From: the human T2T-CHM13v2.0 reference genome, Homo sapiens
Length of the DNA stretch: 64,000 bases
NCBI RefSeq assembly: GCF_009914755.1
Contig: NC_060940.1
Strand: one strand, 5' to 3'
Made by a program: the position numbers and the translations under genes. The notes beneath the pieces are model-generated. The model saw only the letters and a program-made list of their open reading frames with translations, was not told where the DNA came from and did no database searches. How positions within the stretch are numbered: the first letter of the stretch is position 1; every line of letters begins with the position of its first letter. Below, in pieces: positions 49,591 to 52,144 of the stretch.

Positions 49591-49910
49591 GGTAAATATA
49601 TACACTGATATAATGGCTATAATAGTGGCCATTACTATTTATTATTCACTCTATGCTATATATTTATCATCATCTCATTTAATCCTAAAAATAACCCCAT
49701 ATTATTATCATATAATATGTTATATATGTGTGTGTGTGTGTGTGTGTAATTAAATAATTCAAACTTAAAGTTGCTGAAATTTCAAGTTATTCTGAGCCTC
49801 AAGAGAAATGTGGCTCACTGATCCCTGTGTTCTTCCTTACGAGTGGTGAAGTGGGAGATGAAATATGGTCACAGGTTCTCTGAGACTGCTCTGACTGAGT
49901 AGCAGGGGTC

Positions 49911-50645
49911 TGTGTTAGGCTGAATAATGACTGCCCCACACCACAAAAAGATGTCTACATGCTAATTCCCAGAATCTGTGAACATTACCTTACAGGGCAA
50001 AAAAGATTCTGCAGATGTGATTCAGTTAAGAATACCAGAAACAAAGGGATGGCCGGGCACCGTGGCTCACGCCTGTAATCCCAGCACTTTGGGAGGCCGA
50101 GGTGGGAGGATCACGAGGTCAGGAGATCAAGACCATCCTGGCTAACACGGGGAAACCCCGCCTCTACTAAAAATACAAAAAATTAGCCAGGTGTGGTGGC
50201 GGGTGCCTGTAGTCCCAGCTACTCAGGAGGCTGAGGTAGGAGAATGGCATGAACCCAGGAGGCAGAACTTGCAGTGAGCCGAGATCACACCACTGCACTC
50301 CAGCCTGGACAACAGAGCAAGACTCTGCCTCAAAACAACAACAACAACAACAAAAAACAAGGGAACACAAGAAAACTTTTGAAGGTGATGAACATGTCTA
50401 TTACCTTGATTGTGGTGATTTCATGGGTATATGCCTAGGTCCAAACTCATTAAATTGTATATATTAAATATATTAAATATGCACAGTTTATTGCACATCA
50501 GTTATACCTCCATAAAGCTATTTTTCTAAGTTAAGGATCTTGACATAGGGATATTGTCCTGAATTTTCTGGGTGGGCCCAACGTAATGACAAAGGTCATT
50601 ACAAGACAGACCCAGGAGAGTCAGAGTGAGAGCAAGATGTGTGAA
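49911..50645 (+). mobile_element. MLT1 LTR 5' part, split by an L1M 3' stub carrying an AluY-like element (50051-50357)
   Basis: TGTGTTAGGCTGAATAATG...GATGTGATTCAGTTAAG | AAGTTAAGGATCTTGA...GGGTGGGCCC. Confidence 0.8.
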
Positions 50646-50649
50646 GGCT

Positions 50650-51575
50650 CCAACACACTGCTGGCAGAAATTAAAATGTTACAACTAATTTGAAAAAGTC
50701 ACCTTTTTTTTCAAGTTAAACCTACATCTACCATATGACCCAGACGTTCCACTCCAAGTTATTTACCCAAGAGAAAAGAAAGATTATATGCACACGGGCG
50801 TTTGGACATAAATGTTCGTAGTAGTTTCATTCATTCACAATAGTTAAAAACTTGTAATGAACCAAATATTCCTCAACAGGTGTTAAATAAACAGATGTTA
50901 AGTAAAATAAAGGTTAGTAAACTGTAGTATATCTGTACAATGGAATAGTAGTCAGGTTATTTTAAAATGGGCAGATAATTAGTACATACAAAACCATGGA
51001 TGAACCACAAAATTACTAAAAGACAACCATAATCTGGTTTATGGTAAAAAGAGAGTATCAGTGGTAGCCAGGGCTGAAGGGAGGAAAGATGGCAAAGGGA
51101 CCTGGGGCAGCTTTGAGGGTGATGGACACATTCTATGACTTGATGGTGGCAGTGGTTTCCTGGGTGTGGCAATGGTTTTTTGCATTTGTCAGAGCTCACT
51201 GAATTACATTTTACATTGATACAACTTATTGTACATAATTATAGTTCAATAAAATTGATTTTTTTTTTTTTTGAGACGGAGTCTCACTCTGTCGCCCAGG
51301 CTGGAGTGCAATGACACGATCTCCGCTCACTGCAAGCTCTGTCTCCCAGATTCATGCCATTCTCCTGTCTCAGCCTCCCAAGTAGCTGGGACTACAGGCA
51401 CCCGCCACCACGCCCGGCTAATTTTTTGTGTTTTTTAATAGAGACGGGGTTTCACCGTGTTTGCCAGGATGGTCTTGATCTCCTGACCTCGTGATCCACC
51501 CGCCTCAGCCTCCCAAAGTGCTGGGATTACAGGCGTGAGCCACCGTGCCCGGCCAATAAAATTGATTTTTAAAAA
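50650..51575 (+). mobile_element. L1ME-type 3' fragment with an AluY-like insertion (51259-51554, minus)
   Basis: CTACCATATGACCCAG...ATTTACCCAAGAGAAA; Alu TSD AATAAAATTGATTTTT. Confidence 0.82.
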
Positions 51576-52144
51576 CCTTAAAAAAAGAGAGAGAAATGTG
51601 GCTATGCAGCCAGTCATGTAGCATGCACCTGCCAACTTCTGCTTCTCTGAGTGTAGATTAACTCTCTTTCTTATTCTTATACGGTAGATAACTTGCAAGA
51701 TCAAGCAGCACGAAAGATCCCCTCAGATCATTGCCCCTCCTCACAAAATAATAAAGTAACCTTCTTTGGAATGTAGCCATCTATAATCAAATTGCTATAA
51801 TGTATGCACTTGTCTTCTATAAAAAATGTTGTAATCCTGCTAACGTTTCTCCGTCTCTGCCTACTTAAGTGAATCCTTAACTTCACTTTGGAATGCTGAC
51901 CTCATTCATTTGCAGTCCTTGTTTCCTGGGTGGCTATACTCAAGCTTTGCACTCAAATAAACTCTACACCTAGTCATATTTTCTTAATCTTATTCTTAAA
52001 GGTTGACATGTACCTATAATATATAACATATACATATTATATTATGTAACATTTAACAGATGAGAAAACTGAGGCTCAGAACAGAGAAGTAATTTCTCCA
52101 GGCTGGTAAGTGGTGGAGCTACTGGCCGTAAAACTGGCAAATGC

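What the first reader, a model, noticed from the sequence alone, without database searches (positions are those of the whole stretch)
49802..51603. Age-inverted nesting: 1.8-kb mosaic of ancient repeats retro-inserted into a younger LTR
Seen: an ERV1-type LTR is split by 49816-51589 with an exact 14-bp TSD AGAGAAATGTGGCT (49802-49815, 51590-51603). The insert contains ~95 bp of unique DNA, half an MLT1, an L1M stub and an L1ME-type 3' end, and finishes with AATAAA (51555-51560) and a short A-run (51580-51586). Two AluY-like elements sit inside it. Established: MLT1 and L1ME predate most MER4-group LTRs and could not have jumped in as one unit. Inference: an orphan transduction or retrocopy of a non-coding RNA polyadenylated at the L1ME signal, i.e. 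a fossil transcript from another locus.
Basis: partly seen in the sequence, partly recalled or inferred. Interest (0 to 1): 0.72.

Follow-up and report, generated by a model that had tools for sequence, protein, structure and literature searches.

The report
Fossil RNA copy from chromosome 8
A 1.1-kb stretch of old repeat-filled DNA from chromosome 8 sits as a 94%-identical copy inside a viral-type repeat on chromosome 16, likely pasted there from an RNA by LINE-1 enzymes roughly 25-35 million years ago; this is a clean example of a known process, with no sign of function.

Summary
Observation confirmed and the predicted source found. An exact 14-bp duplication flanks 49816-51589. The LTR halves abut in natural copies, overlapping by exactly 14 bp in 6 of 6 measurable copies. 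Minus its two Alus, the insert is a colinear copy of chr8:27,437,912-27,439,042 (64 of 1089 mismatches, 5.9%). No intron is removed, and both Alus are missing at chr8. Homology stops 19 nt after AATAAA, where an untemplated A-run begins; at chr8 the L1 sequence runs on. The age inversion disappears: the mosaic was built at chr8 long ago and moved once, much later than the host LTR (copies about 75% identical). The promoter is unresolved. No plausible donor L1 lies in the 39 kb upstream; the nearest full-length L1 (41 kb away) is far too young. A third, older partial copy (about 15% diverged, no TSD) lies on chr18. Verdict: a real L1-mediated retrocopy or orphan transduction of unannotated RNA, a new member of a known kind.

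The parts
49743..49815 (+). 5' part of host solo LTR (starts TG; about 478 bp without the insert and one TSD copy)
   Evidence: 78-88% identity to 11 of 11 dispersed copies; copy lengths about 454-490
49802..49815 (+). left copy of 14-bp target-site duplication; preceded by TC/A, giving TC/AAGA, a degenerate L1 endonuclease-type site
   Evidence: TT/AAAA preference from PMC2912911 passages; reading TC/AAGA as a tolerated variant is recalled
49816..49909 (+). 5' end of the copy, 94 bp = chr8:27,437,912 onward; no microhomology with the target; at chr8 it follows an ancient dispersed repeat (L2-like by eye)
   Evidence: continuity of the repeat across the junction was tested and not shown
49910..50033 (+). 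MLT1-like LTR fragment, first part
   Evidence: 76-84% to 6 of 6 fetched relatives; name recalled
50034..50526 (+). old L1 3' stub nested in the MLT1-like piece (10-12 bp duplication), present at chr8; carries Alu 1 on chr16
   Evidence: MLT1 halves overlap by 10-12 bp in 4 of 5 relatives that match both halves; stub relatives
50051..50351 (+). AluY-like element 1, absent at chr8, degenerate TSD of about 12 bp (50037-50049 / about 50352-50364)
   Evidence: subfamily diagnosis recalled
50527..50645 (+). MLT1-like fragment, second part; already truncated at the same point on chr8
50660..51263 (+). old L1 (L1ME-type) 3' end with its AATAAA (51248)
   Evidence: 95% to chr8; about 86% of aligned columns to chr18:63,973,683-63,974,176; boundary at 50660 by eye
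51264..51553 (-). AluY-like element 2, absent at chr8, inserted on the polyA signal with exact 17-bp TSD (51247-51263 / 51554-51570)
51554..51579 (+). second TSD copy with AATAAA (51555-51560) and last templated bases (= chr8 up to 27,439,042)
51580..51589 (+). A7 tail not templated at chr8 beyond its first A, plus GAG (likely a GA-repeat slip next to the TSD)
51590..51603 (+). right copy of 14-bp TSD
51604..52008 (+). 3' part of host solo LTR (ends CA)
   Evidence: 71-80% to dispersed copies

Best explanation
The insert is a colinear 1.13-kb copy of intergenic chr8 DNA, likely made when LINE-1 enzymes reverse-transcribed a polyadenylated, unspliced non-coding RNA from that locus into an old solo LTR on chr16, likely about 25-35 million years ago. 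Shown: source, colinearity, direction chr8 to chr16, TSD, A-tail placed 19 nt after AATAAA, later gain of two Alus. Inferred: (1) Pol II transcribed the chr8 mosaic from a non-L1 promoter upstream and cleaved at the AATAAA of the dead L1ME-type end; (2) L1 ORF2p nicked at TC/AAGA and primed on the A-tail in trans; (3) reverse transcription stopped after 1.13 kb (5' truncation); (4) the copy has since decayed neutrally. The RNA-mediated core, shared with rival 1, is about 0.92 likely; the non-L1 promoter is the weaker step.
For: Source at 91-92% by BLAST and 64 of 1089 aligned mismatches. Flanks of the source have no close paralog, so it is not a segmental duplication (40 best candidates scored in each). 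chr8 L1 sequence continues past the AATAAA and matches 9 of 9 fetched family members there, while chr16 switches to A7. The LTR is split with a 14-bp overlap. TSD length matches the 14-16 bp peak reported for full-length L1, and trans-mobilised copies rarely have short TSDs (PMC2912911 passages). A young-L1 probe found only short old 3' fragments between chr8:27,399,001 and the source. Changes are symmetric, 9 on chr16 and 9 on chr8 in 474 columns with chr18 as outgroup. No Rfam hit; the only 2 ORFs of 50 aa or more start in or lie within the Alus.
Against: No intron removal, so the RNA step rests on the A7 tail, its spacing from AATAAA and the TSD. The tail is short. No transcript data were available for chr8. 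The candidate promoter (an intact, about 880-bp LTR-like repeat 1.2 kb upstream) has no demonstrated orientation: its AATAAA and GTGAGT motifs were not at matching positions in 2 of 2 relatives. Donor L1s are often missing at true transduction sources (PMC4862182 section 14), so their absence does not prove a non-L1 promoter. The date uses recalled primate divergences.
Confidence: 0.55

Rival explanations
1. Orphan 3' transduction: a then-active L1 just upstream of the chr8 segment read through its own signal, ended at the old AATAAA, and the copy was so 5'-truncated that no donor L1 sequence came along. The donor L1 was never fixed or was later deleted.
For: It predicts exactly the same product. 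Most validated primate transduction sources lack a full-length donor (PMC4862182 section 14). The insert fits the operational definition used in PMC12350158, a polyA insert aligning outside exons (passages), if chr8 has no annotated exon there.
Against: No L1 5' UTR, ORF1 or mid-ORF2 match in chr8:27,399,001-27,451,000; only fragments of 55-574 bp at 68-76%. The full-length + strand L1 at about 27.390-27.396 Mb is 98.9% identical to another young L1 over 3,158 bp and 41 kb away, so it is too young and too far.
Confidence: 0.37
2. DNA-level templated insertion (break repair copying chr8 DNA), with the flanking repeat and A-run arising by chance.
For: No splicing; the A-run is only 7 nt; the chr18 relative shows that this locus's sequence has also moved without a TSD.
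Against: Exact 14-bp TSD with no target loss; the breakpoint falls 19 nt after AATAAA; no junction microhomology at the 5' end.
Confidence: 0.06
3. The mosaic formed in place on chr16 and chr8 is the copy.
For: None beyond symmetric divergence.
Against: Only chr16 has the TSD, the tail and an interrupted host element; chr8 has the uninterrupted L1 continuing 3'.
Confidence: 0.02

Closest known systems
Orphan L1 transductions (definition in PMC12350158; Solyom 2012 seen only as a reference in PMC4862182)
   Same: PolyA-tailed, TSD-flanked copy of non-exonic DNA without accompanying active L1 sequence
   Different: Ancient (6% diverged) rather than polymorphic or somatic; no donor L1 identifiable
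L1-mediated retrocopies of non-coding, unspliced RNAs (PMC7692494)
   Same: TSD, A-tail, 5' truncation, non-coding parent missed by exon-junction searches
   Different: No known parent RNA; no Rfam family; cargo is mostly extinct repeats
5' transductions, where part of a retroelement is transcribed from an outside promoter (10.1101/2021.07.12.451456; PMC13174262)
   Same: Upstream non-L1 sequence moved together with an L1 3' end and its polyA signal
   Different: The L1 part here was long dead and only about 600 bp, so it must have moved in trans; no splice junction

Membership tests
L1-mediated (TPRT) insertion | TSD of typical length | tested here: met
   exact 14 bp, equal to the overlap in 6 of 6 measurable LTR copies
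L1-mediated (TPRT) insertion | untemplated 3' A-tail | tested here: met
   A7 at 51580-51586; chr8 has one A then GT; the tail is short
L1-mediated (TPRT) insertion | endonuclease site near TT/AAAA | tested here: inconclusive
   site reads TC/AAGA, two differences from the preferred motif
Retrocopy of a Pol II RNA | polyA signal 10-30 nt before the tail | tested here: met
   AATAAA ends 19 nt before the A-run; spacing rule recalled
Retrocopy of a Pol II RNA | introns removed | tested here: not met
   colinear with chr8, largest gap 9 nt apart from the Alus; not required for a single-exon 3' end, but it bars the label processed pseudogene
Retrocopy of a Pol II RNA | identified parental transcript | not testable with these tools
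   no annotation or RNA data for chr8; the source lies 78 kb from stathmin-family exons on the other strand
Orphan 3' transduction | donor L1 of matching age directly upstream of the source | tested here: not met
   a lost donor cannot be excluded
Segmental duplication | homology extends into flanks | tested here: not met
ERV1-class solo LTR (host) | TG...CA ends, dispersed copies of similar length, 4-bp TSD | tested here: met
   exact 4-bp TSD in 2 of 6 copies examined, 3 of 4 bases matching in 2 more and in the window; 4 bp as an ERV1 trait is recalled
ERV1-class solo LTR (host) | named family (MER4 group) | not testable with these tools
   no Dfam or Repbase library

The most novel reading that the evidence does not exclude
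The chr8 locus is a long-lived, unannotated germline transcription unit that ends in a dead L1's 3' end and has exported its sequence twice, tens of millions of years apart: once to chr18 (about 15% diverged, no TSD) and once to chr16 (6%, canonical). Such TSD-flanked mosaics of extinct repeats would be a datable fossil record of ancient non-coding RNA 3' ends that exon-junction and active-L1 searches miss.
Probability: 0.12. Interest if true: 0.55.

Novelty: new member of a known kind. Interest (0 to 1): 0.3.

Why it matters
It shows that an apparent old-repeat-inside-young-repeat paradox can be one late retro-insertion of a ready-made mosaic. Such cases would mislead nesting-based dating of repeats and repeat annotation. 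It also records that a polyA signal in an extinct L1 at 8p21 was likely used in the primate germline about 30 million years ago. No function is indicated.

Tried and rejected
Removed intron at about 50645: absent. The full-length L1 upstream on chr8 as donor: rejected on age and distance. Pfam scan of + strand frames over 27 kb upstream: 0 families in 9 of 9 frames, but insensitive, since it also missed an old L1 fragment that the DNA probe found. Further retrocopies or longer 5' copies from the chr8 flanks: none among the 40 best candidates per search. Orientation of the upstream LTR-like element by motif position: inconclusive. L2 continuity across the 5' junction: no hit. Rfam: 0 hits in L011 and L001. 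A CAG lies 3 nt before the 5' breakpoint at chr8; this is common by chance and not used as evidence. Literature for a transcript in the interval: PMC4774106 passages gave nothing. A citable human-monkey divergence: PMC4665013 passages gave none.

Full report
Observation. The 14-mer at 49802-49815 and 51590-51603 is exact, occurs twice in the 64-kb window and is the longest repeat shared by the two junction neighbourhoods. The sequence on both sides belongs to one dispersed LTR. The right part hits many loci at 71-80%, short end pieces up to 87%. Aligning the left and right parts separately to 11 fetched copies, both match 11 of 11. In the 6 copies whose alignments reach both junctions (L023, L024, L026, L030, L031, L032), the two parts overlap by exactly 14 bp. 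The element runs TG (49743) to CA (52008), about 478 bp without the insert; six copies measure about 454-490 bp, and two of the six show an exact 4-bp TSD, which I recall as typical of ERV1. Family names in this report are recalled; no repeat library was available.

Source. The Alu-free parts of the insert hit one locus far above all others: chr8 (G000:C8) 27,437,912-27,439,042, same strand. Global alignment gives 19 of 219 and 45 of 870 mismatches, together 64 of 1089 = 5.9% (95% interval 4.6-7.4%). Order is identical and the largest gap apart from the Alus is 9 nt, so no intron was removed; the MLT1/L1 junction is the same on chr8. Both Alus are absent at chr8. Searches with four flanking stretches of the chr8 source (L011 2650-4840, 4840-5760, 6000-6912, 8380-10000; 40 best candidates scored in each) found no close paralog, so only this piece was copied. 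Stathmin-family exons lie at 27,516,826-27,518,085 on the minus strand, 78 kb away. From recall this places the source in the interval between ADRA1A and STMN4; I could not check annotation there.

Direction and mechanism. On chr8 the sequence after AATAAA reads on into L1 sequence that matches 9 of 9 fetched family members at 71-75%. On chr16 homology stops 19 nt after AATAAA and an A7 run begins, then GAG and the TSD. Only chr16 has a TSD and an interrupted host, so chr8 is the donor. A 14-bp TSD, no 5' microhomology and a tail placed behind a polyA signal fit target-primed reverse transcription. PMC2912911 (passages) reports a 14-16 bp TSD peak for full-length L1, and that trans-mobilised truncated copies rarely have short TSDs and less often have microhomology than truncated L1. 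The target reads TC/AAGA, two bases from the preferred TT/AAAA, so that feature is weak.

How the mosaic was built. At chr8 an old L1 3' stub sits inside the MLT1-like piece: the two MLT1 parts overlap by 10-12 bp in 4 of the 5 relatives that match both (the fifth has a gap of about 175 bp; a sixth matched one part only). The pieces therefore arrived one by one at chr8 and later moved as one unit. LTR copies are a median 75% identical to each other (55 pairs), whereas the insert is 94% identical to its source, so the move is much younger than the host. The age inversion is resolved.

Date. With chr18 as outgroup, 9 changes fall on chr16 and 9 on chr8 in 474 columns, as expected for two neutrally decaying copies. 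The two AluY-like elements differ at 15 of 240 non-CpG sites, similar to the insert-source figure (4-8% non-CpG by segment), so they likely arrived soon after. The second landed on the polyA signal and duplicated it (17-bp TSD). Using recalled divergences (human-macaque about 6.5%, human-orangutan about 3%), the event falls near the ape and Old World monkey split, about 25-35 million years ago. This is inference; no outgroup genome was available.

What drove the RNA. A full-length + strand L1 lies at about chr8:27.390-27.396 Mb. It is 98.9% identical over 3,158 bp to another young L1 and ends about 41 kb upstream, so it is far too young to be the donor. Using it as a probe over chr8:27,399,001-27,451,000 gave only three old 3' fragments (574 bp antisense at 73%, 413 bp sense at 68%, 55 bp antisense at 76%). 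By eye there is also a stub of about 150 bp in L034 near 6560-6720 that the probe missed. No donor of matching age is present. Against over-reading this, PMC4862182 (section 14) found that most validated primate transduction sources have no full-length donor. An intact LTR-like repeat of about 880 bp ends 1.2 kb upstream (27,435,853-27,436,730; relatives 68-80%) and is a candidate promoter, but my motif test did not establish its orientation. I put a non-L1 promoter at 0.55 and a lost L1 donor at 0.37.

A third copy. chr18:63,973,350-63,974,176 (minus) matches 854 bp of the chr8 L1 piece at 82% by BLAST, including about 330 bp past the AATAAA. chr8 and chr18 share the join between an L1ME-type end and a distal L1 segment that the nine family members lack. 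They also share 26 of 260 differences from those members, whereas the other 54 pairs share at most 9. Both are somewhat further from the family majority (0.20, 0.18) than most members (0.12-0.18), so a rare subfamily is not excluded. The chr18 piece has no TSD that I could see; its right flank is L1 ORF2 sequence and its left flank looks like ORF1 by eye. It is an older, non-canonical relative whose route (RNA or DNA) is unknown.

Function. No Rfam family matched L011 or L001. The only two ORFs of 50 aa or more start in or lie within the Alus. The supplied annotation shows no gene or functional element over the insert.

What is known. Retrocopies of unspliced non-coding RNA are described and are noted to be missed by exon-junction searches (PMC7692494, abstract and introduction, part 1 of 6). 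Orphan transductions are a standard class (PMC12350158 passages). The T2T repeat paper lists 700 high-confidence transductions (10.1101/2021.07.12.451456 passages); its Table S13 was not available here and could list this locus. PMC13174262 (passages) covers chimeras with mostly long L1s. Eight literature searches (listings only, apart from the papers named) showed no report of this event, but none could search by coordinate, so that is weak.

Verdict. It is a clean, traceable new member of a known class, with an unresolved promoter and an older sister copy. Interest 0.3.

Noticed in passing
G000:C18:63973350-63974176 (-), L013:5351-6177: Older (about 15% diverged) partial copy of the chr8 L1 piece, sharing its private join and 26 of 260 derived sites; no TSD seen; sits between L1 ORF1-like and ORF2 flanks.
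   Followed up: partly
G000:C8 about 27390400-27396500, L037: Full-length young L1 on the + strand, 98.9% identical to another young L1, with open ORF1 and ORF2 in two open stretches; its 3' UTR has the ACA motif recalled as L1HS-Ta. It appears to sit inside an LTR-like sequence.
   Followed up: partly
L011:4854-5731 (chr8:27435853-27436730): Intact old LTR-like repeat of about 880 bp, 1.2 kb upstream of the source; candidate promoter, orientation not established.
   Followed up: partly
L011:8385-8417: Inverted repeat of 13-14 bp arms right where the chr8 L1 piece ends, just before a short DNA-transposon-like fragment.
   Followed up: no
window 49727-49747: (TG)n microsatellite grown at the 5' edge of the host LTR, blurring its own 4-bp TSD.
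   Followed up: no
window 50051-50351 and 51264-51553: Two AluY-like elements in opposite orientation, about 0.9 kb apart, both gained within the 1.1-kb copy and neither at chr8.
   Followed up: partly
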